From: a virus
Lineage: Duplodnaviria > Heunggongvirae > Uroviricota > Caudoviricetes
Virus record (IMG/VR): IMGVR_UViG_2537562195_000010
DNA: 53,150 bases
Reading direction: 5' to 3' (one strand)
This document shows, piece after piece, positions 6,417 through 52,160 of this stretch (the stretch's first letter is position 1; each line of letters starts with the position of its first letter). Below the pieces are notes generated by a model, which had not been told where the DNA came from, made no database searches, and worked only from the letters and a program-made list of their open reading frames with translations. A program made the position numbers and the translations under genes.

Positions 6417-6434
6417 AGGTAAATAATAGAGGCG

Positions 6435-6491: not shown

Positions 6492-6517
6492 TTTGTTGTG
6501 TTTACTAAGGAGTAGTT

Positions 6518-6799
6518 ATGGAAGAATTAAGAATATTTCTCAATTCTCTTTCGTCAGATGAACAGCGTATGTTTGCATGTGAGTGTGGTACTAGCATCGG
6601 TTATCTAAGAAAAGCATTGAGTAAAGGTCAAGTGTTAGGGGCATCGTTATGTGTCCTTATTGAGCGAGCCAGTAATGGTGAAGTTACACGTCAGCAACTA
6701 CGGCCTTTTGATTGGATGAACATTTGGCCCGAGCTGGAAGATACCCAAACGTTAACACAACCACTTTCCTGGAGCTTGATTCATGAAAATCAAGCATGA
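6518..6799 (+). CDS. Cro-like transcriptional regulator (YdaS-family HTH)
   Basis: 93 aa; '...GTSIGYLRKALSKG...LCVLIERASNGEVTRQQLRPFDW' matches the YdaS/Cro-like pattern (C..IERAT.G.V....LRPD.W); divergent from the repressor. Confidence 0.7.
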   Translation: MEELRIFLNSLSSDEQRMFACECGTSIGYLRKALSKGQVLGASLCVLIERASNGEVTRQQLRPFDWMNIWPELEDTQTLTQPLSWSLIHENQA

Positions 6800-7220
6800 A
6801 CACATCCGCATGGCAATGAATGCGTGGCTGCTTTATCCGAAGGTAGGGCGCAAAAAAATCGCTGATGATATAGCGACAGCATATTTTGAGCTTGAAATGA
6901 CTTATCCACCAATGCATGACACCTCTACGACAGAGGGTATTGGATTGAACATACAAAATATTTTTCGCTGGCTTGAAAAGGATACGCCTGATGCTGTTGA
7001 AAAAATTCAGGCACTAATTCCGGCTATCCTGACTGTTCTTCCGCGTGAACTGCGTTATCACCTCAGTATTTTTGACACTGTTGAGCGCCGTGCATTACTG
7101 GCGGCGCAGGAAGCGTTGAGCACGGCAATTGATGCACATGATGATGCAGTCCAGGCCGTTTACCGGAAAGCGTATTTCAGCGACAGCGGGTCATCCGGCG
7201 AGTCTGTTGTGGTGCATTGA
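6783..7220 (+). CDS. YdaT-like protein (possible CII-type regulator analogue)
   Basis: 145 aa ORF directly after the YdaS-like gene, the racR-ydaS-ydaT arrangement of Rac-type immunity regions; assignment by synteny and general resemblance only. Confidence 0.5.
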   Translation: MKIKHEHIRMAMNAWLLYPKVGRKKIADDIATAYFELEMTYPPMHDTSTTEGIGLNIQNIFRWLEKDTPDAVEKIQALIPAILTVLPRELRYHLSIFDTVERRALLAAQEALSTAIDAHDDAVQAVYRKAYFSDSGSSGESVVVH

Positions 7221-7306
7221 TATTTATGCCAGACCCCTGCTGATTCTGTTGATTGGGGAATCACAGAATATCACCAGAGGATGGTTCGTCACAAGATGAG
7301 GCAATT

Positions 7307-8317: not shown

Positions 8318-8771
8318 ACAGCAAATCCGTCTGGTCTGCCGTCAGTGCATGGACCGCTGCCGGGCGGGTGAAACGTGGCCCCCGGACCTGGCTGAGTTTG
8401 TTGCGCTGATTTCGGAGAGTGGGGCAAATCCATTTGGTCTTACGGTGGATGCAGTGATGGAAGAGTACCGGCGCTGGCGCAATGAATCCTGGCGATACGA
8501 CGGGAGTGATAAATACCCGTGGCCACAGCCTGTGCTGTACCACATCTGCCTCGAAATGCGTACCAGAGGGATTGAGCGCCAGATGACGCAGGGTGAGTTA
8601 AAACGACTTGCGGAACGGCAACTGACGAAATGGGCAAAGCATGTTGGTAACGGGATGAGTGTTCCGCCAGTGCGACGACAACTGGAAGGGGCGAAACACC
8701 CGCAAGGGCCAACGCCAATTGAACGGCTGAAACAGGAATACGAACGCCGGAAGGCAGCTGGTTTTATTTGA
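8310..8771 (+). CDS. Lambda P-like replication protein (DnaB helicase loader)
   Basis: C-terminal region aligns by eye to lambda P ('WPPDLAEFVALI', 'YPWPQPVLYHICLEM', 'GELKRLAERQLTKWAKHV'). Start uncertain: 8310 (ATG overlapping the upstream stop), 8229 or 8109 are all in frame. Confidence 0.6.
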   Translation: MTEQQIRLVCRQCMDRCRAGETWPPDLAEFVALISESGANPFGLTVDAVMEEYRRWRNESWRYDGSDKYPWPQPVLYHICLEMRTRGIERQMTQGELKRLAERQLTKWAKHVGNGMSVPPVRRQLEGAKHPQGPTPIERLKQEYERRKAAGFI

Positions 8772-8786
8772 ATCTGGGAAACGATT

Positions 8787-9521
8787 TTGTCGGAGGAAAT
8801 TTTAATGGAAACCGTATTTGACGCACTGAAAGCACTGAAAAGAGCCTCTTCACAGGTAGTGGCGGCCCGCCTTGGAATCAGCCGTGAAGATGCGGTCAAC
8901 GAACTGTGGAAACTGAAGCGCCGTGGTGAAGCGGATAACAAGGGGTCGATGTGGTGGCTGACTCAGGCAGGTGAAAGTGAACCAGTGTCACCGGTACCGA
9001 AAGTGACAGCGCAAATGCTGACTGAGGCGATTGAACAACATGGCCCACAAACGGCAGATGAGCTGGCACTGATGTTCGGGATTACCTCCCGCCGGGCGAA
9101 TTCATCACTGGCCATGGCAATCAGCAAAGGGCGTCTGATTCGCGTGAATCAGGGCGGTAAATTTCGTTACTGCATACCGGGCGCTGATTTACCGGCAGAG
9201 CCGGAAGCTGCATCCGTAGCGGAAACAGATGGTAAAGCCTTTCCTCAGCCAGCAGGTGTTGCGTTACCAGTCCGGGAAACGACGACACAGGAAGAAATGA
9301 AAACAGAAATCGTGGAAGACATTGTGAAGTTACAGCCATCGGTCACCGAAACGAAAGCAGATGACCTGATTCTACCATCGCTGCATGTGGCTAACCGCGA
9401 GCTGCGCCGGGCAAAAGGTCAGGTTCAGAAGTGGGAGCGTGTCTGCGCCGCGCTGCGGGAGCTGAACAAGTGCCGGGATATTCTCCGGGATATTACCGCC
9501 ACCAGAGAACAGCAGCGGTGA
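8787..9521 (+). CDS. Hypothetical protein
   Basis: 244 aa ORF with good coding character; GTGA overlap with the next gene; no family recognised. Confidence 0.5.
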
Positions 9522-9835
9522 GTGGGTGGACGACGTGGTGCCGGGCTGAAATTCTGATACTCCGGCAGTGCGCGGGAACAATGAAGGTAAAAAGCATTGG
9601 CGCACTTATCGGACGAACTGAAGCGGCAGTGAGAACGAAGGCACGGGAGCTGGGCATCAGTATGATGTTACGTGGTGATTTTCACCCGTCGGCAAAATAT
9701 TCTCAGCGTGATATTGAGCTGGCGCGGCAACTGCATCAGAGAGGCATGCAAAGAAGGGAAATTGCCAGAAAATTAGGCATGCCGCTGCACATAGTGAATA
9801 ACTACGTTTATTTCGACAGGAGGGTTCAGGCGTGA
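9518..9835 (+). CDS. GcrA-like HTH DNA-binding protein
   Basis: GTG at 9518 overlaps the upstream stop (GTGA); '[16 protein letters not shown]...[22 protein letters not shown]' resembles the GcrA-type N-terminal HTH (W..E.L.L...G.S...IA..LG.T.NAV..K..RLG). Confidence 0.5.
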
Positions 9836-10137
9836 GGGTGAGAATTTATATCGCCGGTCCAATGACGGGATATGAAAATTTCAACCGCGAGGCATTTCAC
9901 AGAGCGGAAGAAGCACTTAAACGGGAAGGGCATACCGTTTTAAACCCGGCAGTACTTCCGGACGGGCTGACTCAGCCGCAGTACATGGATATTTGCATGG
10001 CAATGATTCGTTGTGTGGATGCGGTTTATATGCTGAATGGCTGGCAGCGGTCAGCGGGCGCTAAGGCAGAACTGGCACTGGCGGAGAAACTGGGACATGC
10101 GGTTATTTTCCAGGAGGCAACAAGTGAGCGAAATTAA
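9832..10137 (+). CDS. DUF4406 family protein (nucleoside 2-deoxyribosyltransferase-like fold)
   Basis: 101 aa; 'RIYIAGPMTGYENFNREAFHRAEEAL' N-terminus is characteristic of DUF4406; GTG start overlaps the upstream stop. Confidence 0.55.
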   Translation: MRVRIYIAGPMTGYENFNREAFHRAEEALKREGHTVLNPAVLPDGLTQPQYMDICMAMIRCVDAVYMLNGWQRSAGAKAELALAEKLGHAVIFQEATSERN

Positions 10138-10435
10138 AGAAATGCAGGTAGAACGTGATGAATATGGCTGCTGGACACATCCGGAGTATGAAAAGTTTTG
10201 CGCAGGTCGTGAATATATTTCCACCGAGGAATTTGACGCCTGGATGAAGGTAAATAATCTTCAGTGGACTATTTGCAGTATGGATGAAGATGATTTTAAT
10301 TCAGATGCAGATGACTCCGGTATTTCCGCCTGGGAACCGGAACGACCAGAGGGAGAAGGCTGGTTTATTGGCTCCATTCATGATACTGAAGATGGCCCGG
10401 TTTGTGTCTGGTTGCGAAACAAGGTAATGGCGTAG
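10124..10435 (+). CDS. Hypothetical acidic protein
   Basis: In-frame GTG at 10124 preceded by AGGAGG (6 nt spacing); the ORF-track start at 10037 lies inside the upstream gene and is probably an artefact. Confidence 0.45.
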   Translation: MSEIKEMQVERDEYGCWTHPEYEKFCAGREYISTEEFDAWMKVNNLQWTICSMDEDDFNSDADDSGISAWEPERPEGEGWFIGSIHDTEDGPVCVWLRNKVMA

Positions 10436-10762
10436 ATGAAAATAGAAAAAGCGAAAGTACAGCTCAGGATAATGCTTGCTGGTCCGGCTGCGAGTTATAT
10501 GACACATTCGCCAGCCATAAAAAAGGTCCTTGATGAACTGGAGGCCAAAGACAAGCGCATTGCAGAACTGGAGGCAAGGGAAGTCCAGTTACCGGTTGGT
10601 TATGAACTTCGCTATGGACACCCGATAAATGCTGATGAGCGCCATATTATGATACCTAAGGAAAATGGCAGCTGGCTTTATCTGGCTGACTTAGAACATG
10701 CACTACGTGTTGCTGGCATTCGCATCAAAGGAGAGCGATGTGGAAATAAAACCAGAAGATGA
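10436..10762 (+). CDS. Hypothetical protein
   Basis: 108 aa; ATG immediately follows the upstream stop (TAGATG). Confidence 0.5.
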   Translation: MKIEKAKVQLRIMLAGPAASYMTHSPAIKKVLDELEAKDKRIAELEAREVQLPVGYELRYGHPINADERHIMIPKENGSWLYLADLEHALRVAGIRIKGERCGNKTRR

Positions 10763-11096
10763 GTTAAGTAATATTGTTTTATTTCCGGTAAAAGAGGATG
10801 ACCCACGTAATCAGGTTAATTTTCTTTATGAGCCATCGGAAAGACCATACTGCCATCACGCCTCTGTCCGGGTTGACGAAAAAGAGCGTCAGGTCCGCTG
10901 TAAAATCTGCGGTTCAGTTGTGGAGCCGTTTGACTGGATGCTCTCTGTGGCGAAAAGAGAAACCAGACTGGCAGATGATGTAAAGCTATTGCGCCAGGAG
11001 GAACAGGAAAGGCGAAAAAATATAGAAAAGTTAATTCAGATTGAGCGTAACGCGAAAGCGCGGATACGCAGGGCGTCAAAATCCAGAACTGAATAA
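10740..11096 (+). CDS. Hypothetical protein with possible Cys4 zinc-ribbon
   Basis: GTG at 10740 with AGGAGA RBS; 'CHHASVRVDEKERQVRCKICGSVVEPFDW' has C..H...C..C spacing. Confidence 0.45.
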   Translation: MEIKPEDELSNIVLFPVKEDDPRNQVNFLYEPSERPYCHHASVRVDEKERQVRCKICGSVVEPFDWMLSVAKRETRLADDVKLLRQEEQERRKNIEKLIQIERNAKARIRRASKSRTE

Positions 11097-11191
11097 TTAA
11101 ATTCAGCACTGTTAAAAATTTAATCCTTAACCGGAGGGATTCCTGCACCCTCAGAACATAAGGAGACCGCCTGAAAGGGTGGTAATGAAAA

Positions 11192-11563
11192 ATGACTGAA
11201 TTAACCAAAGAGCAATTAATCAAGGAAGCCAAATTAAAAATAGCGGTTGCGAACTGTTACCCTAATTCAGAGATGGCCAGGGTAGAGGGAGAGCTATTCA
11301 AAATTGCACTGGCATCGCTGGAAGCAGAACCGATAGCGTGGGAATGCGGTGAAAACATAATCCTGTTTAACCCTGACACAGTTGAAGCATACGCAAAACG
11401 TGCGGAAATATCACCTAAACCACTATTCTCCGCGCCGCCAGCGCTGGTAGTGCCTGATAAGTTGCCGCGTGAATACAGAAACGGTTGGCCTCTTGCGTAT
11501 AGTGATTATGCTGAAGGCTGGAACGACTGCCGCGAAGCCATGCTTCAGGGAGATAAATCATGA
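11192..11563 (+). CDS. Hypothetical protein
   Basis: 123 aa ORF; ATGA overlap with the next gene. Confidence 0.5.
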   Translation: MTELTKEQLIKEAKLKIAVANCYPNSEMARVEGELFKIALASLEAEPIAWECGENIILFNPDTVEAYAKRAEISPKPLFSAPPALVVPDKLPREYRNGWPLAYSDYAEGWNDCREAMLQGDKS

Positions 11564-11913
11564 TTAATCGTATCAAGCTGGAGCACATCCTCGAATATGC
11601 CAGGCAGCAGAGGCATATTGGTCAGCATTGTAAAATTCCACCAGGAGATATGGTTGAAATCATGGAGATTGCCATGCGCAAGGCTGGCAATTCTCCGGTA
11701 ACTCCGGATGGTTGGATAAGCTGTAGTGAGCGAATGCCGCCAGTTGGTGTTGATGTACAACTGTTTGTGTCCTGCACGGGTGAACAGTTTACAGGTTTTA
11801 ACCTGGATAATACGGGTGACTTCCAGTATGCGCAGTGTTTCGGTGCGCCCATCGTGTGTGAAGCCACACACTGGATGCCGCTACCAGAACCGCCGAAGGA
11901 GGTGCGCCAATGA
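11560..11913 (+). CDS. DUF551 family phage protein
   Basis: C-terminal 'GWISCSERMPP...HWMPLPEPPKE' matches the DUF551 signature (W...E.LP ... WMPLPEPP). Confidence 0.6.
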   Translation: MINRIKLEHILEYARQQRHIGQHCKIPPGDMVEIMEIAMRKAGNSPVTPDGWISCSERMPPVGVDVQLFVSCTGEQFTGFNLDNTGDFQYAQCFGAPIVCEATHWMPLPEPPKEVRQ

Positions 11914-11993
11914 GCTGGCCTGAAGCCTTCTCAAATGTTGGTATTGCAATGGCGGTGGCGCTGGTTGTGTATTCGATTTGCCGCTGGGGATAA
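11910..11993 (+). CDS. Small hydrophobic peptide (27 aa), translationally coupled
   Basis: 'MSWPEAFSNVGIAMAVALVVYSICRWG'; ATG overlaps the DUF551 stop (ATGA); AAGGAGG 7 nt upstream; followed by a terminator. Below the 60-aa ORF-track threshold. Confidence 0.3.
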   Translation: MSWPEAFSNVGIAMAVALVVYSICRWG

Positions 11994-12006
11994 ATTGCTG
12001 AAAAAA

Positions 12007-12042
12007 GATCCCGACACACACATGAGTCGGGATCTTTGATTT
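12007..12042 (+). terminator. Rho-independent terminator
   Basis: Hairpin 'GATCCCGAC-(loop)-GTCGGGATC' followed by 'TTTGATTT'. Confidence 0.6.
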
Positions 12043-12117
12043 ATATATCCTACGAATCCGCCAGTAAGAGAGGGGGCGGACGGTTTATTCTAATACTGGA
12101 ATTATGTGGGGAAAAGT

Positions 12118-12417
12118 TTATAAGAAATCGGTTTCATAACTTTGTCCGCCATGATAAATACCTGCGATAAAGACTTTATTGCCATCAACGGCAAAAGCAA
12201 TAATCGTTCTGTGGCGGAAGTGAGTTACCCGCATTCCCTGTCGAATATCATCGCGTTTATTGCCCCGATGCGGGAATGTGGAAAACCCATCAAGATAATC
12301 AAGAAGTGCATTGGCATAATTGTCAGCAATGACGCTCCCTGCTTTCTCCGTTATATATCTGTGCAGGTTGATTATCTGCTGTTCGGCCTCAGGAGTAATG
12401 ATGACTTCATATGTCAT
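12118..12417 (-). CDS. ParE/RelE-superfamily toxin (type II TA toxin)
   Basis: 99 aa from 'MTYEVIITPEAEQQI...'; size, sequence character and position directly after a ParD-like gene fit ParE-family toxins. Confidence 0.7.
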   Translation of the reverse strand: MTYEVIITPEAEQQIINLHRYITEKAGSVIADNYANALLDYLDGFSTFPHRGNKRDDIRQGMRVTHFRHRTIIAFAVDGNKVFIAGIYHGGQSYETDFL

Positions 12418-12422
12418 GCAGA

Positions 12423-12680
12423 TTACTTCCCGGCTCGAATCGCGGCGCGAACCTGTGCAATGGAGCGTCCGTTGTTTGGGTTTTCGCGGATAGAATCGAG
12501 AGATGGGGCGGCTGAATGCGTTAACCACGCTTCGATTGCTTTATCGCGCTCATTCAGTGCGCGAAGCCCTTCACGAATGACCTCACTTTCTGAAGCATAG
12601 GCACCGGAAGCCACACGGGCGCGCACCATGTCAGCCATCTCGTTAGTTAATGTAACGCTGAATTGTTGGGTTGTACGCAT
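12423..12680 (-). CDS. ParD-like RHH antitoxin
   Basis: 85 aa from 'MRTTQQFSVTLTNEMADMVRARVASGAYASESEVIREGLRAL'; ribbon-helix-helix antitoxin pattern; 5-nt gap to the toxin gene. Confidence 0.7.
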   Translation of the reverse strand: MRTTQQFSVTLTNEMADMVRARVASGAYASESEVIREGLRALNERDKAIEAWLTHSAAPSLDSIRENPNNGRSIAQVRAAIRAGK

Positions 12681-12761
12681 GGTAAACCTCACGGAGTAGG
12701 ATAGAACACTATTCGATGATAGCACGCTTCCTGTTGACGACAACAGAAATCAGAGACAATA

Positions 12762-13094
12762 TTGCCGCACGCCAGCCTGAACAACTGGCACCTGCTGCGC
12801 CAGCAGAGACAACCGATGGCGCACGATACCAAATTACACAATTCGGATAACTCCGCCGCCCCTGCCAGCAGGCACGGGCGGCGTTCTCATGCATTCAAAT
12901 CTGACTGGTTCCAGCATGACCCATGCACTGAAGAACAGGCCGAATGGCTGATCCAGTGCTACCGCAGACGTGGTTACGAGTTTCAGAAAGATCTCAGCTT
13001 CGATCGTCGTCACTGGATAATCTCCGTCAGGCTCCCTTATTCCGAACGCCCACCGCGTCCGTCCCGCACATTCCAGCAGCGCATCTGGAGGTAA
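12762..13094 (+). CDS. Hypothetical protein (weak call)
   Basis: 110 aa ORF between the TA pair and the DUF968 gene; start codon uncertain (TTG at 12762 or ATG at 12816). Confidence 0.3.
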   Translation: MPHASLNNWHLLRQQRQPMAHDTKLHNSDNSAAPASRHGRRSHAFKSDWFQHDPCTEEQAEWLIQCYRRRGYEFQKDLSFDRRHWIISVRLPYSERPPRPSRTFQQRIWR

Positions 13095-13095
13095 C

Positions 13096-14145
13096 GTGCG
13101 GGTATTACTTCGACCTGTTCTGGTACCGGAACTCGGGATGGTGCTCCTTAAGCCGGGCCATGAATCAATGTCAGCATTCCATAACGGCAGAATATTGGTG
13201 GAGCCGGAACCGAAAAACATGCGTGGTCTGCCGTCCGGAGTCGTTCCTGCCGTTCGCCAGCCGCTGGCAGAGGATAAAACATTACTGCCATTTTTCAGCG
13301 ATGAGCGGGTTATTCGTGCTGCAGGTGGTGCAGGTGCACTGTCTGACTGGTTATTACGTCACGTGAAATCCTGTCAGTGGCCACACGGCGATTATCATCA
13401 CAGCGAAACCGTCATTCACCGTTACGGTACCGGCGCGATGGTGTTGTGCTGGCACTGTGACAACCAGCTGCGCGACCAGACATCAGAATCACTCGATCAA
13501 CTTGCTCAGCAGAATCTGGTTGCCTGGATGATTGACGTCATCCGTCACGCAATAAGCGGTACGCAGGAGAGGGAGTTATCGCTGGCCGAATTATCCTGGT
13601 GGGCGGCCTGCAATCAGGTGGTGGATGCACTACCTGAGGCAGTAGCGCGTTGTTCGCTGGGATTACCAGCGGAAAAAATCCGCTCCGTATACCGTGAGAG
13701 TGACATCGTACCGGGAGAACAGACAGCCATCAGCATACTGAAGCAGCGCACAAAAAATATTGCGCTGCCACTTCACGTCCACCAGCAACAAAATCCACCA
13801 CAGAAAAAAACGGTTGTCAGTATCGCCGTTGATCCGGAGTCTCCTGAATCGTTCATGAGGCGGCCTAAACGTCGCCGTTGGGTTAATGAGAAATACACGC
13901 GCTGGGTAAAGACACAGCCGTGTGCGTGTTGTGGTAAGCCAGCTGACGATCCGCATCACCTGATTGGTCATGGTCAGGGGGGAGTGGGAACAAAGGCCCA
14001 CGATATTTTCACGCTACCGTTGTGCCGGGAGCACCACAACGAACTTCATGCAGACCCGCTGAAGTTTGAGAAAAAGTACGGCTCTCAGATTGAGTTAATT
14101 TTTCGTTTTCTTGATCACGCCTTTGCGACTGGCGTGCTCGGGTAA
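13096..14145 (+). CDS. DUF968 domain protein (YdfU-like)
   Basis: 349 aa; GTG start with GGAGG at 5 nt; C-terminal 'CACCGKPADDPHHLIGHGQGGVGTKAHDIFTLPLCREHHNELH' zinc/His-rich motif typical of DUF968 proteins. Confidence 0.7.
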   Translation: MRVLLRPVLVPELGMVLLKPGHESMSAFHNGRILVEPEPKNMRGLPSGVVPAVRQPLAEDKTLLPFFSDERVIRAAGGAGALSDWLLRHVKSCQWPHGDYHHSETVIHRYGTGAMVLCWHCDNQLRDQTSESLDQLAQQNLVAWMIDVIRHAISGTQERELSLAELSWWAACNQVVDALPEAVARCSLGLPAEKIRSVYRESDIVPGEQTAISILKQRTKNIALPLHVHQQQNPPQKKTVVSIAVDPESPESFMRRPKRRRWVNEKYTRWVKTQPCACCGKPADDPHHLIGHGQGGVGTKAHDIFTLPLCREHHNELHADPLKFEKKYGSQIELIFRFLDHAFATGVLG

Positions 14146-17766: not shown

Positions 17767-17842
17767 GGCCCTTTAGCTCAGTGGTGAGAGCGAGCGACTC
17801 ATAATCGCCAGGTCGCTGGTTCAAATCCAGCAAGGGCCACCA
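17767..17842 (+). tRNA. tRNA with CAU anticodon (Met or lysidine-modified Ile2)
   Basis: Hand-folded cloverleaf: acceptor GGCCCTT/AAGGGCC, D-arm GCTC...GAGC, anticodon loop CTCATAA, T-arm GCTGG-TTCAAAT-CCAGC, encoded CCA. Confidence 0.85.
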
Positions 17843-17850
17843 TATCCATA

Positions 17851-17927
17851 CCGCCATTAGCTCATCGGGATAGAGCGCCAGCCTTCGAAGCTGGCTGCGC
17901 GGGGTTCGAGTCCTCGATGGCGGTCCA
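17851..17927 (+). tRNA. tRNA-Arg (anticodon UCG)
   Basis: Hand-folded cloverleaf: acceptor CCGCCAT/ATGGCGG, anticodon stem CCAGC/GCTGG with loop CTTCGAA, T-loop TTCGAGT, encoded CCA. Confidence 0.85.
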
Positions 17928-18700: not shown

Positions 18701-18950
18701 GTGTTAAATCCCTCACAATTCAGTAAGTTGACAGTTGCCTGTCAGACTGAGCATTTGTTAAAAAAATTTCGCATGGTGAATCCCCCTGTGCGGAGGGGCG
18801 ACTGGTGAACGGTATGATCTCTTTGATGATCGTAAGCGAGAATACGCGGGTTTGGTGTCACCGGGCTGAACTCACCGGGAGGCACCCGGCACCATGCTCA
18901 TGGTGATACAGAAATGCGGCTTCAGCCCCTCTCCGGAGGGGCTTTCTTAT
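18701..18950 (+). repeat. Structured repeat unit A (family of five; possible sRNA gene or promoter-terminator cassette)
   Basis: Contains the conserved blocks 'GTTAAATCCCTCACA', 'TTGTTAAAAAAA', hairpin 'GGTGAATCCCCCTGTGCGGAGGGGC', hairpin 'CACCGGGAGGCACCCGGCACC' and terminator 'GCCCCTC-TCCG-GAGGGGC-TTTCTT' (18925-18948). Confidence 0.7.
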
Positions 18951-19110
18951 GGACAAAAAAAGCCCGCGCTGGGAGACGCGGGCGGCAAGGAATAAACAAT
19001 AAAACGTGAAGTAATACTTCAACTGGCGAATAATACCCGACAGTAATCACTCTGCGCAATAGCGTGGCCTTTTTCGAATTGCGGGCTGTAGTCTCCCTTC
19101 TGCTGGGTGT

Positions 19111-19266
19111 CCTGGTTGCAGATTTCTTCATGGGGTAGGGTTCGGCAGTTAAAGCAGCGATGGCGCTGGGGCGTCGTGCAACTGGCGTTGAGCTGGATAC
19201 CGGGCGTTTTGAACAGACTGCGCAGGAAATCAGGGATGTATTTAGCGGGAGCGGTTTGCAGAAGTA
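19111..19266 (+). pseudogene. Remnant of a DNA methyltransferase 3' end (duplicate of the C-terminus of the 16668..17726 gene)
   Basis: Near-identical to 17578-17726 ('CCTGGTTGCAGATTTCTTCATGGGG...GGCGTCGTGCAACTGGCGTTGAGCTGGA...') but with an in-frame TAG ('FFMG*') and no upstream gene body. Confidence 0.6.
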
Positions 19267-19330
19267 ATCTCCCAAAATGCCATTTTTGGAATATACTGGT
19301 ATTAAGTCTTTTTGCTAAGGTTAATTCAAA

Positions 19331-20056
19331 ATGGATGTTGCCTGCTCTGTGGTCCTGATTCGCTATCCGATAGATATTTTTCTTGAAAAAGAAAAAGTTT
19401 CACTCGATGCCGGAAGTGTTATGCTTGTTGCCAGAAATATAAGAGGGCTTTTCTGTGCTTATGCCGACAGAGTGAAAATGGCAGATATAAGTAACAGCGT
19501 CGTCAATCAGTATCTGGAAAGGGAGTGTGAACTGACGGAGTATACACCGACAAAAATTCCTCTTTATTTGATGTCTGATATTTACAATACGGAACTGGCG
19601 GAGGCTTTAATAACCCAGCATAGTGAATCCAGTGATACTTTGAAGGATTTCTCTGTTATAACCGCATTTTCATGTATCTCCTTATTTGCAACAGACAGAC
19701 GTCTGCCATTATTTTTGTCCGGTGCTGTAAATAATATCAGCTGTAAAGTAAGGGCTATAATTCAGACCGACATATCGGCAGGCTGGATGCTTGGTGTGAT
19801 TGCATTACAATTGCATATGAGCGAAAGCTTGTTGAAGCGAAAACTTAAGGATGAAGGTTATAGCTTTAGTCGGTTGTTGCTGGAGGAGCGAATGCGTGTT
19901 GCTGTTAATCTTGTATGTTTCCAGCGAGAGTGTGGACAAGCGATAGCGGAAAAATGTGGTTACTCAAGTAAGTCCTACTTCATTTCTGTATTTCACCAGT
20001 ATTATGGTGCACCACCTGAGAGCTATGCATATTTGCAGAAAGCAGACGTTATCTGA
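19331..20056 (+). CDS. AraC/XylS-family transcriptional regulator (prophage-encoded)
   Basis: 241 aa; C-terminal double-HTH region '...LHMSESLLKRKLKDEGYSFSRLLLEERMRVAVNLV...IAEKCGYSSKSYFISVFHQYYGAPP' typical of AraC-type regulators; AT-rich island. Confidence 0.75.
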   Translation: MDVACSVVLIRYPIDIFLEKEKVSLDAGSVMLVARNIRGLFCAYADRVKMADISNSVVNQYLERECELTEYTPTKIPLYLMSDIYNTELAEALITQHSESSDTLKDFSVITAFSCISLFATDRRLPLFLSGAVNNISCKVRAIIQTDISAGWMLGVIALQLHMSESLLKRKLKDEGYSFSRLLLEERMRVAVNLVCFQRECGQAIAEKCGYSSKSYFISVFHQYYGAPPESYAYLQKADVI

Positions 20057-20144
20057 TGTTTTTCATCAGGCATATATTGATTGACTGTATTAGATATAGT
20101 CTGAATGTGTTCAGCATAAAAAGTTATAATCATTTGGTGTTTGC

Positions 20145-20423
20145 GTGAATATTGATGAGAAAATCAGATGTAGCCAACTGTTACAGCGTATTGAAGCCGT
20201 CAATGTGGAACGAACAAAGGTCTTCAGTCGTCTGACAGTTTTATTTTGTACCCCTGATCGACGTTCAGGTCAGGAGATGGTTCTTCTGGATGTAGATGCA
20301 CTTCGGAACGTCTGTGAGGAGTTCACCGCGGCTAATTCGGAGTTACTGAGTCTTGTTCAGGAGTACAACAGAATTGCAGGTAGTAACGGTTTTGATGAAA
20401 TCAAAATTATATCCCGTGGATAA
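20145..20423 (+). CDS. Hypothetical protein downstream of the AraC-family regulator
   Basis: 92 aa ORF with GTG start; AT-rich; no family recognised. Confidence 0.4.
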   Translation: MNIDEKIRCSQLLQRIEAVNVERTKVFSRLTVLFCTPDRRSGQEMVLLDVDALRNVCEEFTAANSELLSLVQEYNRIAGSNGFDEIKIISRG

Positions 20424-20671
20424 AACATATCCTGTATATTTATGTTGTTACATACAGGCGCTTTTAGTATCTGCCGCACGGCAGTTGTACTTCAGAATAA
20501 GATGCTTTTGTGACTGGTGGTGTTGTATCTGGGGTTAGCCAGGAGGCAGGTTCAGAGAGTCCGGTGGTAATTATGTGTATGCAGTGGTTGTTGCTGTACC
20601 GTGGGCAAGTTCTGGAACTGGCTTCGTCCATTGTAGATGATTGTTAGCTGGATATCAGTTACCTCATGGAA

Positions 20672-20907
20672 ATGTTAAATGACTCACAATTCGGTTGATG
20701 GGCTATTGTCTGATCGATGGAAGTCTTGTAAAAACGAGCCAGCATAGTGAATCCCCCTGTGCGGAGGGGCGTCTGACATGGTCTCCATAGCGATGGTCAC
20801 AATACGCAGATTCAGTAGTCAGGCTGAATCTACCGGGAGGCACCCGGCACTATGCTGCTTATGGTGTATACATAGCGATCGGCCCCTCTCCGGAGGGGCT
20901 TTTTTTG
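20672..20907 (+). repeat. Structured repeat unit B
   Basis: Same conserved blocks as unit A ('GTTAAATGACTCACA', 'AGTGAATCCCCCTGTGCGGAGGGGC', 'TACCGGGAGGCACCCGGCAC', terminator 'GGCCCCTCTCCGGAGGGGCTTTTTTT'). Confidence 0.7.
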
Positions 20908-20929
20908 TGCGGGAAAAGGCTGTGTTGTT

Positions 20930-21175
20930 AAGTGTTAAATTCCTCACAGTTCAGATGGTTGATGCTTGCCTGTCTGAGGGGGAGTTGTTAAAAAAGTTCT
21001 GCATGGTGAATCCCCCTGTGCGGAGGGGCGACTGGTATGATTTGCATCTTTTCTGTTGTAGGCAATGCAAACGCGGGTTCAGGGACACCAGACTGGACTC
21101 ACCGGGAGGCACCCGGCACCATGTTCATGATGATACAGATACGCAGTGTCAGCCCCTCTCCTGAGGGGCTTTTTT
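20930..21175 (+). repeat. Structured repeat unit C
   Basis: Same conserved blocks; terminator 'AGCCCCTCTCCTGAGGGGCTTTTTT' at 21151-21175; variable central segment. Confidence 0.7.
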
Positions 21176-21202
21176 ATGCAGGAAAAACGCTGTGTTGTGA
21201 AA

Positions 21203-21436
21203 TGTTAAATTCCTCACAGTTCAGATGGTTGATGCTTGCCTGTCTTACGGGGAGTTGTTAAAAAAGTTCTGCATGGTGAATCCCCCTGAGCGGAGGGGCA
21301 TATCAGCGCAGGTGTTTCTACTCTATCCTTTCTGTGCGGGTTCAGGTGCTGATACTGAACTCACCGGGAGGCACCCGGCATCATGCATATGGTTAACAGA
21401 CAAGTAGCGAAGCCCCTCTCCGGAGGGGCTTTTTTA
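21203..21436 (+). repeat. Structured repeat unit D
   Basis: Same conserved blocks; terminator at 21411-21436. Confidence 0.7.
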
Positions 21437-21462
21437 TGCAGGGAAAAGGCTGTGTTGTGAAA

Positions 21463-21690
21463 TGTTAAATTCCTCACAATTCATGAGGTTGATGATTGTC
21501 TGATTGATGAGGAGTTTGTTAAAAAAAACGGGCATGGTGAATCCCCCTGTGCGGAGGGGTGATATCGTATCATTTCCTGTGTGGCCGACTGATATCACGG
21601 ACATTTGTTCACCGGGAGGCACCCGGCACCATGCAGTATACAGAGATTAGGCATACATCCAGGCTCCTCATCGCAGGAGCCTTTTTACAT
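21463..21690 (+). repeat. Structured repeat unit E
   Basis: Same conserved 5' blocks; central segment forms its own inverted repeat ('GTGATATCG...CGACTGATATCAC'); different terminator hairpin 'GGCTCCT-CATCGC-AGGAGCC-TTTTTA'. Confidence 0.65.
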
Positions 21691-21918
21691 GTAAAAAAAA
21701 CCGCTCCTGGGAAGAGCGGTTGGCAAGGAAGCAAGGAATAAATAACAAAACGTGAAGTAATTTATTCAGCACCCTAATAATACCTTAGAGTAATCACCTT
21801 GCGCAACTGTAAGGGCGTATTTCTTTTTTGCGGGCTGTTTTTCTGTGTGACTTTTGTGTTTCCGGAGGTCAGCCCGTGCCTTCTCTGACTCAGAACATTA
21901 TCCCGGCCGGGAGGATTC

Positions 21919-34494: not shown

Positions 34495-34716
34495 ATGGCA
34501 AAGATCCGATATCTGCAGGGCACGCATGATGCCCGGGCCGGGGATATCCGTGATGTGGCACAGCCGTGTGCGGAGGTGCTGGTTCGCCTGGGAAAGGCGG
34601 AGTACATCACGGTGCGACGTCCGGCAGGTCAGAAAAAGAAACGTGATGCGGAGCATGGCGAATGTGGAACCTTTTACGGCGAACCCGAAAAAACCAGAAA
34701 TCAGGACGTGACGTAA
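34495..34716 (+). CDS. Small hypothetical protein (weak call)
   Basis: 73 aa ORF 'MAKIRYLQGTHDARAGDIRDVAQPCAEVLVRLGKAEYITVRR...' between capsid and portal; weak RBS. Confidence 0.3.
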   Translation: MAKIRYLQGTHDARAGDIRDVAQPCAEVLVRLGKAEYITVRRPAGQKKKRDAEHGECGTFYGEPEKTRNQDVT

Positions 34717-45227: not shown

Positions 45228-45926
45228 ATGCAGGATATTCACGAAGAAAGCCTGAACGAGTCGGTTAAGTCAGAGCAGTCACCGCGGGTGGTGCTCTGGG
45301 AAATCGACCTGACGGTGCAGGGCGGTGAGCGGTATTTTTTCTGCAATGAGCTGAATGAAAAAGGGGGGCCGGTGACCTGGCAGGGGCGTGAATATCAGGC
45401 GTACCCGATTGAGGGCAGCGGCTTTGAGATGAACGGAAAGGGCAGCAGTGCCCGCCCGTCGCTGACGGTGTCCAATCTGTTTGGCCTTGTCACCGGGATG
45501 GCGGAGGATTTGCAGAGCCTGGTGGGTGCCACGGTGGTCCGCCGCCGGGTGTATGCGCGTTTTCTGGATGCGGTGAACTTTGTGGCAGGCAATCCTGAGG
45601 CAGACCCGGAGCAGGAGCTGACGGACCGCTGGGTGGTGGAGCAGATGTCAGCGCTGACGACCATGACGGCCTCGTTTGTGCTGGCGACACCGACGGAGAC
45701 GGACGGTGCGCTGTTTCCCGGTCGCATCATGCTGGCGAACACCTGTATGTGGGATTACCGGGGCGATGAATGCGGGTATAACGGTCCGGCAGTGGCGGAT
45801 GAGTTCGACAACCCCACCACGGATATCCGGAAGGACAGATGCAGTAAATGCATGCGCGGGTGTGAGATGCGCGGCATGGTGGCTAATTTCGGCGGTTTCC
45901 TTTCCATTAATAAACTTTCGCAGTAA
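45228..45926 (+). CDS. Minor tail protein L
   Basis: 232 aa from 'MQDIHEESLNESVKSEQSPRVVLWEIDLT...GGFLSINKLSQ', matching lambda gpL by eye; the ORF-track start at 45186 lies inside the terminator. Confidence 0.9.
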   Translation: MQDIHEESLNESVKSEQSPRVVLWEIDLTVQGGERYFFCNELNEKGGPVTWQGREYQAYPIEGSGFEMNGKGSSARPSLTVSNLFGLVTGMAEDLQSLVGATVVRRRVYARFLDAVNFVAGNPEADPEQELTDRWVVEQMSALTTMTASFVLATPTETDGALFPGRIMLANTCMWDYRGDECGYNGPAVADEFDNPTTDIRKDRCSKCMRGCEMRGMVANFGGFLSINKLSQ

Positions 45927-45936
45927 ATCCCGTTTT

Positions 45937-46682
45937 ATGACACAGACTGAATCAGCGATTCTGGCGCATGCCCGGCGGTGTGCGCCAGCGGAGTCGTGCG
46001 GCTTCGTGATAAGCACCCCGGAGGGCGAACGGTACCAGCCCTGCGTGAATATCTCTGCAGAGCCGGAGGCGTATTTTCGTATTGCACCGGAAGACTGGCT
46101 GCAGGCACAGATGCAGGGGGAGGAGTTGTGGCGCTGGTCCACAGTCATCCCGGTGGTCTGCCCTGGCTGAGCGAGGCGGACCGGCGGCTGCAGATAAAGA
46201 GTGCCCTGCCCTGGTGGCTGGTCTGTCGGGGTGAAATTCACCGGTTCCGCTGTGTGCCGCACCTGACCGGACGGCGCTTTGAACACGGTGTGACGGACTG
46301 TTACACCCTGTTCCGGGATGCATACCATCTGGCGGGGATAACGCTGCCGGATTTTCATCGCGAGGATGACTGGTGGCGCAACGGCCAGAACCTGTACCTG
46401 GACAATATGGAGGCCACTGGCTTTTGCCGGGTGTCCCTGTCCTCTGCACAGGCAGGCGATATCCTGCTGTGCTGCTTTGGTTCATCGGTGCCGAATCATG
46501 CCGCCATTTACTGTGGCAACGGTGAGCTGCTTCACCATATACCTGAACAACTGAGTAAACGGGAGAGGTATTCTGAAAAATGGCAACGACGAACGCATTC
46601 TGTCTGGCGTCACCGCCACTGGTCCGCATCTGCCTTCACGGGGATTTACAACGATTTGGTCGCCGCATCAGTCTGTATGTGA
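45937..46682 (+). pseudogene. Tail assembly protein K (JAB/MPN plus NlpC/P60), apparently frameshifted
   Basis: N-terminal part 'MTQTESAILAHARRCAPAESCGFVISTPEGERY...' is in one frame and stops at 46170; the JAMM motif 'VALVHSHPGGLPWLSEAD' and NlpC/P60 part continue in another frame to 46682; the switch maps to a G5 run at 46116-46120. Confidence 0.65.
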
Positions 46683-47224
46683 ACACGGCAGCGGAGGCCA
46701 TCCGTGCCCTGTCGCAGCAGGTGCCGGGATTCCGCTGTCAGATGAACGAAGGCTGGTACCAGATACGTATTGCCGGTGAGGATACCGCGCCGGACCAGAT
46801 ATCGCCCCGACTGCATGAGCCACTGAACCCGGGGGATGTCATTCATCTGGTTCCCCGGGCAGAAGGTGCCAAAAGTGGCGGAGTGTTTCAGGCCGTGCTT
46901 GGCGTTGCGCTGGTTGCGGCAGCTATCTGGATGCCGGGTATCGGTATTGCAGCCAGCAACATCATGTTTTCCATGGGCTCTGCAATGGCACTGGGTGGTG
47001 TGGCCCAGATGCTGGCCCCGAAGGCAAAGACGCCGGAGTACAAAAGCACGGATAACGGCAGACAGAACACGTATTTTTCGTCACTGGACAACATGATTGC
47101 TCAGGGGAATCCGGTGCCGGTGCCTTACGGTGAAATGCTGGTTGGTTCACGACGGATATCCCAGGACATCAGCACCCGTGATGAGGGCGGTGACGGGAAA
47201 GTGGTGGTTATCGGGCGGGGATGA
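46580..47224 (+). CDS. Tail assembly protein I
   Basis: 214 aa; 'ARICLHGDLQRFGRRISLYVNTAAEAIRALSQQVPGFR...KNTYFSSLDNMIAQGNPVPVPYGEM' matches lambda gpI by eye; overlaps the K 3' end as in lambda. Confidence 0.85.
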   Translation: MATTNAFCLASPPLVRICLHGDLQRFGRRISLYVNTAAEAIRALSQQVPGFRCQMNEGWYQIRIAGEDTAPDQISPRLHEPLNPGDVIHLVPRAEGAKSGGVFQAVLGVALVAAAIWMPGIGIAASNIMFSMGSAMALGGVAQMLAPKAKTPEYKSTDNGRQNTYFSSLDNMIAQGNPVPVPYGEMLVGSRRISQDISTRDEGGDGKVVVIGRG

Positions 47225-48060
47225 AAAAAAATCCCGCAGTGTTCGGCGCCTGCGGGAAGAGATACGAAGATTAACTTTAAGGAATTTTTCATTATTCTGG
47301 CAGATGAACTGTAACGCAGCGTGATTATGAGCACTACAGTCAGTGTGCGGAAATGTGAATAAACTCAGAATTTTTATTCACCGGAAGAGGATTGCCGGAT
47401 ATCGGTGGCAGAGGACAGAAGGCATCATGCCGGGTTCAGGGGATAAAAAAATCCCGCAGAACTCCGTGCTGCGGGAAGAGAACGATGTTGACTAACCTGT
47501 TGGCGTTTTATTTTTATTGACCCGCAGAAACTGTAACCTGCCGGAATGCACTCTGCCACGGAGAATGACGGAAAATGTGAAGAAAATCAGAGTTTTTATT
47601 TATCCCGTGCATTCGTCTCTGGCGACAGAGTGGCGTCAGTAATGTCCGTGATACTGAGGGGGGAATTAAAAAATCTCCCGTAATACACCTGGATATTGAC
47701 GGGAGAAACGAATAGTCACCTTAAGGAGTAGTTTTGATTATTGCCTGTAATCAGCGGGCGAATTGTAACGTATGGTGATTATGAGTGCCACAGGTAATTT
47801 GCAGAAATGTGAATAAATTCAGAATTTTTATTCACAGGAAGGGGCTGCGGGATATTGGTGGCAGAGGACAGAAAATATCAGGCCGGGTTTAAGGGATAAA
47901 AAAATCCCGCAGAGTTAGCGGAGCTGCGGGAAATAAACGATGAAGATTAACGTTATGGAGTTATTTTTCAGGCATCAAAAAAGTAACGCAGCGTCATTAT
48001 TGCGGCTACAGGCAATTTGCAGAAATGTGAAGAATTTCAGAAATTTTATTCCGTCATGAC
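47224..48060. repeat. Four tandem ~225-bp repeat units in the I-J intergenic region
   Basis: Each unit has an A-run plus GC hairpin ('AAAAAAATCCCGCAG-N8-10-CTGCGGGAA', a minus-strand terminator-like structure; 47224-47256, 47444-47477, 47664-47705, 47898-47932), a conserved 'GTAACGCAGCGT(G/C)ATTAT' block and an AT-rich inverted repeat 'GTGAATAAA-N9-TTTATTCAC'. Confidence 0.75.
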
Positions 48061-48061
48061 A

Positions 48062-48091
48062 CAGGCACCCTCCGGGGTGCCTGTTGTTTTT
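48062..48091 (+). terminator. Rho-independent terminator just upstream of J
   Basis: 'CAGGCACCC-TCCG-GGGTGCCTG' followed by TTGTTTTT. Confidence 0.5.
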
Positions 48092-48134
48092 GGGCATAAA
48101 CAGATTCAGACATCAGACAGGAGAGGGGGACAGA

Positions 48135-51100
48135 GTGGGTAAAGGGGGCGGCAAGGGGCACACACCGCGTGAGGCGAAGGACAATCTCAAATCCACGCAG
48201 ATGATGAGCGTGATTGATGCCATCGGTGAGGGACCGGTGGAAGGCCCGGTGAAGGGACTGCAGAGTATTCTGGTGAACAAAACCCCGCTGACGGACACGG
48301 ACGGTAATCCCGTGATACACGGTGTGACCGCCGTCTGGCGTGCCGGGGAGCAGGAGCAGACACCGCCGGAAGGCTTTGAGTCCTCCGGGGCGGAAACCGC
48401 ACTGGGTGTGGAGGTGACGAAGGCAAAGCCGGTGACGCGCACCATCACGTCAGCGAACATTGACCGTCTGCGGGTCACCTTCGGGGTGCAGTCACTGGTG
48501 GAGACCAGCTCAAAGGGTGACCGTAATCCCTCTTCTGTCCGGCTGCTGATTCAGCTTGAGCGTAACGGTAACTGGGGGACGGAGAAGGATGTCACCATTA
48601 ACGGCAAGACCACCTCGCAGTACCTGACGTCGGTGATTCTGAATAATCTCCCTGAGCGCCCCTTTAACATCCGGATGGTCAGGGTGACGGCGGACAGTAC
48701 CACGGACCAGCTGCAGAACAGAACGCTGTGGTCGTCATACACCGAAATCATCGATGTGAAACAGTGCTACCCGAACACGGCCATTGTGGGGCTGCAGGTG
48801 GATGCGGAGCAGTTCGGTGGCCAGCAGATGGTGGTGAACTACCATATCCGCGGCCGCATCATTTAGGTGCCGTCAAACTATGACCCGGAAAAACGCACCT
48901 ACAGCGGTATCTGGGACGGGAGTCTGAAACCGGCATACAGCAATAACCCGGCCTGGTGCCTGTGGGACATGCTGACCCACCCGCGCTACGGCATGGGAAA
49001 ACGCCTGGGGGCGGCGGATGTGGACAAGTGGGCACTGTATGCCATCGGGCAGTACTGTGACCAGACGGTCCCGGATGGTTTCGGGGGCACAGAGCCGCGG
49101 ATGACTTTCAATGCGTACCTGTCACAGCAGCGTAAGGTCTGGGATGTCCTGGGGGATTTCTGCTCGGCGATGCGCTGTATGCCGGTATGGAACGGCCAGA
49201 CGCTGACGTTCGTTCAGGACCGTCCGTCGGATGTGGTGTGGCCGTACACCAACAGCGATGTGGTGGTGGATGATAACGGCGTGGGGTTCCGCTACAGCTT
49301 CAGTGCCCTGAAGGACCGGCACACGGCGGTGGAGGTGAATTACACCGACCCGCAGAACGGCTGGCAGACTTCCACGGAACTGGTGGAAGACCCGGACGCC
49401 ATCCTGCGCTACGGGCGCAACCTGCTGAAGATGGACGCGTTCGGCTGTACCAGCCGCGGTCAGGCTCACCGTGCCGGACTGTGGGTGATAAAGACCGAAC
49501 TGCTGGAAACGCAGACGGTGGATTTCACGCTCGGGTCTCAGGGGCTGCGGCACACGCCCGGTGACATCATTGAAATCTGTGATAACGACTATGCCGGGAC
49601 CCTGACCGGCGGACGCATCCTGTCCATCGATGCCGCCAGCCGCACACTGACGCTGGACCGTGAGGTGACACTGCCGGAGACAGGTACATCGACGGTGAAC
49701 CTGATTAACGGCAGCGGTAAGCCGGTGCGCGTGGACATCACTGCACACCCCGCCCCTGACCGGATACAGGTCAGCATTCTGCCTGATGGCGTGGCGACAT
49801 ACGGTGTGTGGGGACTCTCCCTGCCGTCACTGCGTCGTCGCCTGTTCCGCTGTGTTTCCATCCGGGAAAACACGGACGGCACCTTTGCCATCACGGCGGT
49901 GCAGCATGTGCCGGAAAAAGAAGCCATTGTGGATAACGGGGCCCGCTTTGAGCCGATGTCCGGCTCACTGAACAGCGTCATCCCGCCGGCAGTGCAGCAC
50001 CTCACGGTGGAGGTGAGTGCCTCAGACGGCCAGTATCTGGCGCTGGCGAAATGGGACACGCCGCGGGTGGTGAAGGGCGTGCGCTTCAGTCTGCGCCTGA
50101 CCAGTGGCAGTGGTGAGAACAGTCGCCTGGTGACCAGCGCCATCACGGCGGACACGGAGTACCGTTTCAGTGGCCTGCCGCTCGGGGAATACACCCTGAC
50201 GGTCAGGGCGATAAACAGCTACGGCCAGCGGGGCGAACCTGCCACCACCACATTCCGGATTAATGCACCGGCGGCACCGGCCAGCATTGAACTGACGCCG
50301 GGCTATTTTCAGATAACGGCAGTACCGGTGCTGGCAGTGTATGACCCGACGGTACAGTATGAATTCTGGTTCTCAGAAAAACGCATCACGGACACGGCAC
50401 AGGTGGAAACCTCTGCCCGTTATCTGGGTACCGGCAGCCAGTGGAGCGTCTCCGGCCCGCACATTAAGCCGGGGAAGGATTTCTGGTTTTATGTGCGCAG
50501 CGTCAACCTGGTGGGGAAATCTGCGTTTGTGGAGGCCAGCGGGCAGGCCAGCAATGATGGTGAAGGGTATCTGGAAATTTTCCGTGGGCTGATAGATGAG
50601 GCGCTGCTGGGGAAGGCACTGAAAGAGCGTATTGATGCGTCAGCCCTGCGTACTGAGGTCACGCAACTGGAAGAAGACATCCGCCAGCGACTGGAGACGG
50701 ATGTTGCGGAAGTGACCCGAAAAATCGGGGAGGCGGAAAACAGCCTCACGCAGCTGGTTGCGAAAAAGAATGAGGACCAGACGCTGGCCATCGCGCAGGT
50801 GAGTCAGCAGGTGGACCGGGTGAGCAGTGAAATCACACAGACCGTCAGCCAGAGCACGGAGGAAAACGCCAGGCAGATAGCGCAGGTCCGCCAGTACGTG
50901 GATGACAAAGGGAGTGAAATCACCTCGACCACGGATAAAAAGCTGGAAGACCAGAGCGCCACCATACAGCAGATACAGCGGGTGCAGACAGACACAAATA
51001 ACGACCTGGCTGCACTGTACATGCTGAAGGTGCAGAAAACAAAAAACGGCATTCCGTATGTTGCCGGTATTGGTGCGGGGATTGAGGATGCTGATGGCCA

Positions 51101-52019: not shown

Positions 52020-52160
52020 ATGTCGCAAAAACCGTTAAAAACCACCGTGATTTGTATCACGGTAGTGCTCATTATCTGGATCACCCACAGTTCACTGTGC
52101 GAGTTCCGGTTCCGGATAGCGGGCGCGGAGATTGCGGCGTTCTTACAGTGTAAGCGGTAA
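52020..52160 (+). CDS. hok: Hok/Gef-family type I toxin
   Basis: 46 aa 'MSQKPLKTTVICITVVLIIWITHSSLCEFRFRIAGAEIAAFLQCKR'; TM helix plus 'SLCE(I/F)R.R....E(I/V)AAF' Hok signature; AAGGAG RBS; structured GC-rich 5' and 3' flanks as in hok/sok loci. Not in the ORF track (<60 aa). Confidence 0.7.
   Translation: MSQKPLKTTVICITVVLIIWITHSSLCEFRFRIAGAEIAAFLQCKR

What the first reader, a model, noticed from the sequence alone, without database searches (positions are those of the whole stretch)
46100..46140. Apparent +1 frameshift inside tail assembly gene K at a G5 run
The N-terminal part of K ends at a stop at 46170 in one frame, while the JAMM motif (HSHPGG...SEAD) and NlpC/P60 part continue in a different frame. 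The junction maps to 'CAGGGGGAGG' (G-run 46116-46120). With the J amber codon this points to a decaying tail module, although homopolymer sequencing error is equally possible.
Basis: partly seen in the sequence, partly recalled or inferred. Interest (0 to 1): 0.5.

Follow-up and report, generated by a model that had tools for sequence, protein, structure and literature searches.

The report
Two-base insertion breaks prophage gene K
A lambda-like prophage of E. coli carries a two-base insertion, seen in no other public sequence searched, that splits its tail-assembly gene K into two reading frames: an ordinary gene-killing mutation or a sequence error, and not a slip in the nearby run of five G as first proposed.

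Summary
The frame break is real in the sequence. K starts at ATG 45937, stops at TGA 46168-46170, and its HSHPGG...SEAD motif and NlpC/P60 domain continue in another frame to 46682.

Six intact homologues read CAGGGGGAG-ATT-GTG, and the window reads CAGGGGGAG-GAG-TTG-TG. The G5 run (46116-46120) is unchanged. The lesion is two extra G at 46123 and 46125, so one A has become GAG, a net gain of 2 nt. The downstream frame is therefore -1 (equivalently +2), not +1.

Removing the two G gives a 247-aa protein that exists letter for letter in public E. coli records. The lesion is absent from 5,426 complete E. coli genomes and from three large contig collections.

The J amber (C>T at 48864) is likewise absent from those genomes. 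All other late genes compared are intact. Over about 27 kb (portal repeat array aside) these two lesions are the only positions where the window differs from both nearest relatives. About 39 kb compared with close relatives shows only one other indel, at an A run (25766) where the window has the common length.

Best reading: a recent inactivating mutation in a tail-defective but otherwise fresh prophage (about 0.6). A non-homopolymer sequence error is about 0.3. Programmed recoding is very unlikely. Interest is low.

The parts
45937..46170 (+). K, upstream part (frame A): 62 native residues (MTQTES...QMQGE), then 15 out-of-frame residues and TGA at 46168-46170
   Evidence: Pfam Prok-JAB profile positions 3-59, E = 8e-08. 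100% identical to intact K up to residue 62.
46116..46120 (+). It is unchanged relative to all intact homologues and is not the lesion.
   Evidence: CAGGGGGAG is invariant in all 7 aligned sequences.
46123..46125 (+). The lesion: GAG where intact K genes have a single A (first base of the Ile63 codon ATT). This equals two extra G, at 46123 and 46125, a net gain of 2 nt.
   Evidence: Intact genes are 744 nt and the window gene is 746 nt. Deleting the two G restores a 247-aa ORF.
46125..46682 (+). K, downstream part (frame B, -1 relative to frame A): VALVHSHPGGLPWLSEAD (rest of the JAMM motif) and the NlpC/P60 domain, ending at the native stop
   Evidence: Pfam NLPC_P60 E = 5.4e-14 and Prok-JAB profile positions 70-113. 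99-100% identical to intact K.
46580..47224 (+). Tail assembly gene I. It is intact and overlaps the 3' end of K by 103 nt, as in relatives.
   Evidence: Pfam Lambda_tail_I. 100% identical to strain 4.
45228..45926 (+). Minor tail gene L, intact, immediately upstream of K
   Evidence: Pfam Phage_tail_L, E = 2.4e-92. 100% identical to strain 4.
48864..48866 (+). Amber codon in J (CAG>TAG, Q244*). This is the second inactivating lesion absent from all complete E. coli genomes searched.
   Evidence: No complete E. coli genome carries it; the best match is 90/91.

Best explanation
The window is a lambda-like prophage of E. coli; in its closest relatives the prophage sits beside ompW. Its tail-assembly gene K, which encodes a Prok-JAB/JAMM domain fused to an NlpC/P60 peptidase domain, carries a small complex mutation: one A has been replaced by GAG at 46123-46125, a net gain of 2 nt. 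The site lies 3-5 nt downstream of an unchanged G5 run.

Translation from the K start leaves the native frame after residue 62 and stops 15 codons later. The JAMM metal-binding motif (HxH...S..D) and the whole peptidase domain are then out of frame, so no functional K is made. Lambda gpK is required for tail assembly. Together with the amber codon in J, the prophage should therefore be unable to make infectious tails, while its head, lysis and other tail genes are still intact.

The lesion appears in no other public sequence searched and the flanks are identical to intact relatives, so the event is very recent.

Shown here: the position and nature of the lesion, its absence elsewhere, the splitting of the domain, and the intactness of the neighbouring genes. 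Inferred: that the two bases are really present in the DNA rather than an assembly error, and that K function is lost.
For: - Position of the lesion: alignment to six intact K genes places two extra G at 46123 and 46125, with the G5 run invariant.
- Gene length: intact genes are 744 nt and the window gene is 746 nt.
- Repair test: deleting the two G gives a 247-aa protein found letter for letter in public E. coli records (6 contigs; cluster of 1,456 members).
- Effect on the protein: the break splits the Prok-JAB domain.
- Absence elsewhere: the 26-nt junction is absent from viral, genome and metagenome contig collections. In 5,426 complete E. coli genomes the best matches (864 places in 600 genomes) reach only 97.4% over a 76-nt junction query, which is the two-base gap.
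- Sequence quality: window 4700-13100 against strain EH41 gives 8,401 nt with 0 gaps. The late region from 18485 against strain 4 shows one other indel, at the A run at 25766, where the window has the length found in 127 genomes.
- Private changes: over 22100-48900, outside the portal repeat array, the window differs from both nearest relatives only at the K lesion and the J amber.
- Role of K: gpK is required for tail assembly and was not detected in the virion (PMC12617516, PMC10721106).
Against: - No reads are available, and no independent sequence carries the lesion, so an assembly or consensus error cannot be excluded.
- Two insertions two bases apart in a purine-rich stretch next to a G run is a pattern that long-read consensus errors can produce (from my own knowledge, not tested here).
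- A close relative (strain 05-3629) has its portal gene annotated as 'frameshifted'. Isolated frameshifts therefore do occur in assemblies of this prophage family, whether real or artefactual.
- Loss of K function is inferred from the sequence, not measured.
Confidence: 0.6

Rival explanations
1. Sequencing, assembly or consensus error: the real DNA reads GAGATT, K is intact, and the two extra G were introduced when the sequence was produced.
For: - The lesion is found in no other sequence searched, and the fragment products are not on record.
- Removing exactly these two bases recreates a protein known letter for letter.
- The site is purine-rich and next to a G5 run.
- A relative's assembly also carries an isolated frameshift, in the portal gene.
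Against: - It is not a homopolymer length error in the G5 run, which is intact.
- About 39 kb compared with close relatives shows only one other indel, at the A run at 25766, and there the window has the common length. The error rate of this sequence therefore looks very low.
- A second, independent error (C>T) would also have to create the J amber. Only about 3.5% of random coding substitutions here give a stop codon.
Confidence: 0.3
2. Leaky or programmed recoding. A ribosome reading GGG (46117-46119) slips -1 on the G5 run onto GGG (46116-46118). It then continues in frame B and makes a 248-aa K in which Glu-Ile becomes Gly-Gly-Val. Enough K is made for tail assembly.
For: - The G5 run lies upstream of the frame A stop, and a -1 shift is the one needed.
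- tRNA-Gly can re-pair perfectly after the slip.
- The predicted product is a continuous ORF with both domains.
- K was not found in virions, so small amounts might be enough (the last step is inference).
Against: - The two-frame arrangement is found in no relative; all six homologues aligned encode K as one ORF with the same G5 run.
- There is no canonical X XXY YYZ heptamer in frame.
- The downstream RNA folds no better than shuffled sequence (z = -1.3).
- The product would alter residues just before the HxH motif.
- At best this would be unselected background slippage.
Confidence: 0.04
3. Non-random loss of the tail tip. The K and J lesions were selected for, or introduced deliberately, for example in a laboratory or attenuated derivative, because they abolish infectious particle formation.
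For: - Over about 27 kb, outside the portal repeat array, the only two changes that set the window apart from both nearest relatives knock out tail-tip genes.
- A random substitution has only about a 3% chance of being a nonsense change in this region.
Against: - This is a calculation made after the fact on two events.
- Six further differences from both relatives lie in the mosaic J tract (49776-50336). If these are point mutations, one nonsense change in seven is unremarkable.
- No known benefit to a lysogen follows from losing tail genes while keeping lysis genes (inference).
- Nothing in the window indicates engineering.
Confidence: 0.06

Closest known systems
Intact K gene of the ompW-site lambdoid prophage of E. 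coli strain 4 (NZ_CP045209.1, WP_228400209.1, 'C40 family peptidase')
   Same: Same gene order: H, M, porin gene, L, K, I, 0.9-kb spacer, J, hok, tail fibre. 12.75 kb is 99.74% identical. The 6.2 kb upstream of the lesion is 100% identical.
   Different: Strain 4 has a continuous 744-nt K and an intact J. The window has two extra G in K and Q244* in J. Strain 4 also has its own D196E change, which the window and other homologues lack.
Bacteriophage lambda gpK (tail tip assembly protein; JAMM/MPN plus NlpC/P60 domains)
   Same: Same position between L and I, with a K/I overlap. Same two Pfam domains, and the same HSHPGG...SEAD motif. gpK is required for tail assembly and was not detected in the virion.
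   Different: The window copy is interrupted inside the JAMM domain, so neither frame encodes a complete protein.
Programmed -1 frameshift in the lambda tail chaperone genes G/GT
   Same: It is a -1 frame relation between two overlapping tail-gene ORFs, with a G-rich run nearby.
   Different: The G/GT shift is conserved across phages at a slippery heptamer (from my own knowledge). Here the two-frame arrangement is found only in this sequence, and all six relatives aligned encode one ORF.

Membership tests
Lambda gpK-like tail assembly protein (Prok-JAB + NlpC/P60) | N-terminal Prok-JAB/JAMM domain with the HxH-x7-S-xx-D motif | tested here: met
   The domain is present but split across frames. 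Profile positions 3-59 are in frame A and 70-113, with HSHPGGLPWLSEAD, are in frame B.
Lambda gpK-like tail assembly protein (Prok-JAB + NlpC/P60) | C-terminal NlpC/P60 peptidase domain | tested here: met
   PF00877, E = 5.4e-14, full profile 1-105, in frame B.
Lambda gpK-like tail assembly protein (Prok-JAB + NlpC/P60) | Position between L and I, with the 3' end overlapping the start of I | tested here: met
   L is at 45228-45926, K at 45937-46682 and I at 46580-47224.
Lambda gpK-like tail assembly protein (Prok-JAB + NlpC/P60) | One continuous ORF encoding both domains | tested here: not met
   Frame A stops at 46170. The gene is 746 nt against 744 nt, and reading it straight through in frame A meets 6 stop codons.
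Genuine pseudogene (real inactivating mutation) | Disruption relative to intact orthologues | tested here: met
Genuine pseudogene (real inactivating mutation) | Lesion confirmed by reads or by an independent sequence | tested here: not met
   No other sequence carries it. Reads cannot be examined with these tools.
Programmed ribosomal frameshift | The two-frame arrangement is conserved in relatives | tested here: not met
   All six intact homologues aligned encode one ORF. No complete E. coli genome matches the 76-nt junction without the two-base gap.
Programmed ribosomal frameshift | Slippery heptamer plus a downstream stimulatory structure | tested here: not met
   There is no X XXY YYZ heptamer in frame at CAG GGG GAG. 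The downstream fold has z = -1.3.
Homopolymer-length sequencing error | Length change within a homopolymer run | tested here: not met
   The G5 run is identical in the window and in all intact homologues. The extra bases flank an A, 3-5 nt downstream.

The most novel reading that the evidence does not exclude
The K insertion and the J amber are not independent accidents. They are the only two changes, over about 27 kb outside the portal repeat array, that set this prophage apart from both nearest relatives, and both remove tail-tip functions. This could reflect selection for, or deliberate creation of, a prophage that still lyses and packages DNA but cannot make infectious tails. Residual K might still be supplied by -1 slippage on the adjacent G5 run.
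Probability: 0.06. Interest if true: 0.4.

Novelty: already known. Interest (0 to 1): 0.1.

Why it matters
It matters little beyond annotation. K should be annotated as a frameshifted pseudogene, or the sequence corrected. The prophage should be scored as probably unable to form infectious particles even though it looks complete.

The lesion is a 2-nt complex insertion beside the G run, not inside it, and the frame relation is -1/+2. 'Homopolymer error' is therefore the wrong default explanation, and the site can be checked with a single PCR amplicon.

Tried and rejected
- **Exact protein look-ups.** The 77-aa N-terminal product and two possible C-terminal products (234 aa from GTG 45978, 184 aa from GTG 46128) were searched in the 153-billion-gene index and the 15-billion-protein collection. 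None is on record. This is a weak test, because gene callers may choose other starts or mark the gene as a pseudogene.
- **Junction searches.** Exact 26-nt junction scans of viral, genome and metagenome contigs gave 0 hits.
- **Dcm deamination as the cause of the J amber.** The context is cattCaggtg, not CCWGG, so this was rejected.
- **A template for the inserted bases.** No nearby direct or inverted copy of GGGAGGAGTTGTG exists. Three loose matches in the window are no more than chance expects.
- **A frameshift-stimulating RNA structure downstream of the G5 run.** None was found (z = -1.3).
- **The J mosaic tract (48900-50400).** I tested whether it exists exactly elsewhere, which would have shown that its differences come from recombination. 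The best match is 98.9%, so this is unresolved.
- **Identity of the I-J spacer repeats.** AgvB has an Rfam family and gave no hit at E <= 1. The Pas sRNAs lie near the Q, esterase and holin genes, not here.

Full report
**What the window is.** The 53-kb window is a lambda-like prophage. It runs from an integrase gene (1-1131, minus strand) through early, lysis, head and tail genes to the start of a tail-fibre gene. Its closest relatives among 5,426 complete E. coli genomes are prophages integrated beside ompW in strain 4 (NZ_CP045209.1) and strain 05-3629. The tail region has the same gene order as in strain 4: tape measure H, M, a porin gene, L, K, I, a 0.9-kb spacer, J, hok and tail fibre. 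It is 99.74% identical over 12.75 kb.

**Checking the observation.** The frame break exists.
- K starts at ATG 45937, and this frame ends at TGA 46168-46170.
- A second ORF, 45978-46682, contains HSHPGGLPWLSEAD and the NlpC/P60 domain.
- Pfam finds Prok-JAB profile positions 3-59 in the first frame. Positions 70-113 and a complete NlpC/P60 domain are in the second frame. The intact strain 4 protein has both domains in one chain.

**Where the lesion really is.** Every K match listed in E. coli genomes and phages spans about 752 nt of the record against 754 nt of the query. Six intact K genes were aligned, including the about 93% identical VT1-Sakai copy. All read CAGGGGGAG-ATT-GTG-GCG, and the window reads CAGGGGGAG-GAG-TTG-TGG-CG.
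- The G5 run is invariant.
- BLAST places two single-base gaps at 46123 and 46125. The first base of the Ile63 codon (A) has in effect become GAG, a net gain of 2 nt.
- Frame A starts at a position equal to 1 mod 3 and frame B at 0 mod 3. The downstream frame is therefore -1 (or +2) relative to the start, not +1.
- Deleting the two G restores a 744-nt ORF. Its 247-aa product exists letter for letter in public E. coli records.
- The only other K difference from strain 4, D196E, is peculiar to strain 4.

**Is the lesion found elsewhere?** It was not found in any collection searched.
- The 26-nt junction is absent from the viral, genome-representative and metagenome contig collections.
- In the complete E. 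coli genomes, the best matches to a 76-nt query across the junction (864 places in 600 genomes) reach only 97.4%, which is the two-base gap.
- Three candidate fragment proteins are not on record.
- The J amber (CAG>TAG at 48864, Q244*) is likewise absent; the best match is 90/91.

**State of the rest of the prophage.** Every strain 4 gene with a counterpart in the window was compared.
- All late genes are intact except K and J. The other gap is in a small hypothetical ORF at the A run at 25766.
- H, M, the porin gene, L and I are 100% identical to strain 4.
- The portal gene is a continuous 807-codon ORF. It is one 162-nt in-frame repeat unit shorter than in strain 4.
- At the A run at 25766 the window has A7, the length found in 127 genomes. 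Strain 4, with A6, is the odd one out.
- The early region 4700-13100 matches strain EH41 over 8,401 nt with 23 mismatches and no gaps.
- A three-way comparison over 22100-52690 (window, strain 4, 05-3629) gives a clear result. Outside the portal repeat array (36212-36281) and a mosaic tract in J (49776-50336), the window differs from both relatives only at 46123, 46125 and 48864.

**Interpretation.** The best reading is a recent, real, complex 2-nt insertion that inactivates K.
- The break removes the metal-binding half of the JAMM domain and the whole peptidase domain from the reading frame.
- gpK is required for lambda tail assembly, although it was not detected in the virion (PMC12617516, PMC10721106).
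- With the J amber, the prophage should be unable to build a tail tip. It keeps intact lysis, head and other tail genes. 'Decay' therefore amounts to two very recent hits rather than an eroded module.
- The untranslated stretch of about 410 nt before the start of I could also reduce I and J expression through polarity. This is inference only.

**The main rival: a sequence error.**
- For: no other sequence carries the lesion, and the site is purine-rich next to a G run. A relative's assembly also has an isolated frameshift, in its portal gene.
- Against: this is not a homopolymer-length change. About 39 kb compared with close relatives shows only one other indel, at 25766, where the window has the common length. 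The J amber would need a second, different kind of error, and only about 3.5% of random coding substitutions here give a stop.
- I put real mutation at about 0.6 and artefact at about 0.3.

**Other readings.**
- A -1 slip of tRNA-Gly on the G5 run would in principle restore frame B and give a 248-aa K. But no relative has the two-frame arrangement, there is no canonical slippery heptamer, and the downstream RNA is unremarkable (z = -1.3). Programmed recoding is rejected. Background leakiness cannot be excluded.
- It is mildly odd that, outside the portal repeats and the J mosaic tract, the only changes setting the window apart from both relatives are gene-killing. This is a calculation made after the fact on two events. 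It weakens further if the six J-tract differences are point mutations rather than recombination, which is unresolved.

**Verdict.** This is an ordinary inactivating lesion, or an error, in a well-known gene. Interest is low.

Noticed in passing
window 47225-48134 (between I and J): A 910-nt stretch with no long ORF, made of four degenerate repeats of about 220-230 nt. The clearest copies end, on the minus strand, in a terminator-like hairpin (cccgcag...ctgcggg) followed by a T run, which suggests a tandem array of minus-strand small RNA genes. It is unannotated in RefSeq relatives and matches no Rfam family at gathering score; the only hits are weak ones such as GcvB on the minus strand (E = 0.69). 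Stx phages carry a single copy of about 250 nt at the same place.
   Followed up: partly
window 43854-45017 (+): An intact 387-aa OmpC-type porin gene (Pfam Porin_1, E = 5e-143) lies inside the tail operon between M and L. It is flanked by non-coding DNA and is identical to the 'porin OmpC' WP_000738904.1 annotated in strains 4 and 05-3629. This is a moron in an unusual position.
   Followed up: partly
window 48864-48866: The J amber is CAG>TAG (Q244*). It is absent from all complete E. coli genomes searched and is not at a Dcm CCWGG site. J also has a tract (49776-50336) with six differences from both nearest relatives, and the surrounding 48900-50400 has no exact match anywhere searched (best 98.9%).
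   Followed up: partly
window 36189-36616 (portal gene 34662-37085): There is an in-frame 162-nt tandem repeat array inside the portal gene. The window gene has 807 codons against 861 in strain 4, one unit fewer. The same gene is annotated 'frameshifted' in strain 05-3629.
   Followed up: partly
window 17767-17924 and 18742-21692: Two tRNA genes are followed by five copies of the prophage small RNA STnc100 (RF02076, 119-172 bits) within 3 kb, downstream of Q and a DNA methyltransferase gene.
   Followed up: no
window 4700-13100 versus the rest: The prophage is a mosaic. The immunity and replication region matches strain EH41 (99.73%, no gaps), while the late genes match strain 4. Strain 4 has a different immunity region.
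   Followed up: partly
window 25766: The A7 run in the window is A6 in strain 4. A7 is the state found in 127 genomes, so strain 4 is the deviant. The RefSeq 'hypothetical protein' called there in strain 4 may depend on that one-base difference.
   Followed up: yes
window 52020-52160 (+): A Hok/Gef-family toxin gene lies between J and the tail-fibre gene and is 100% identical to strain 4. Rfam reported no Sok RNA at gathering score.
   Followed up: no
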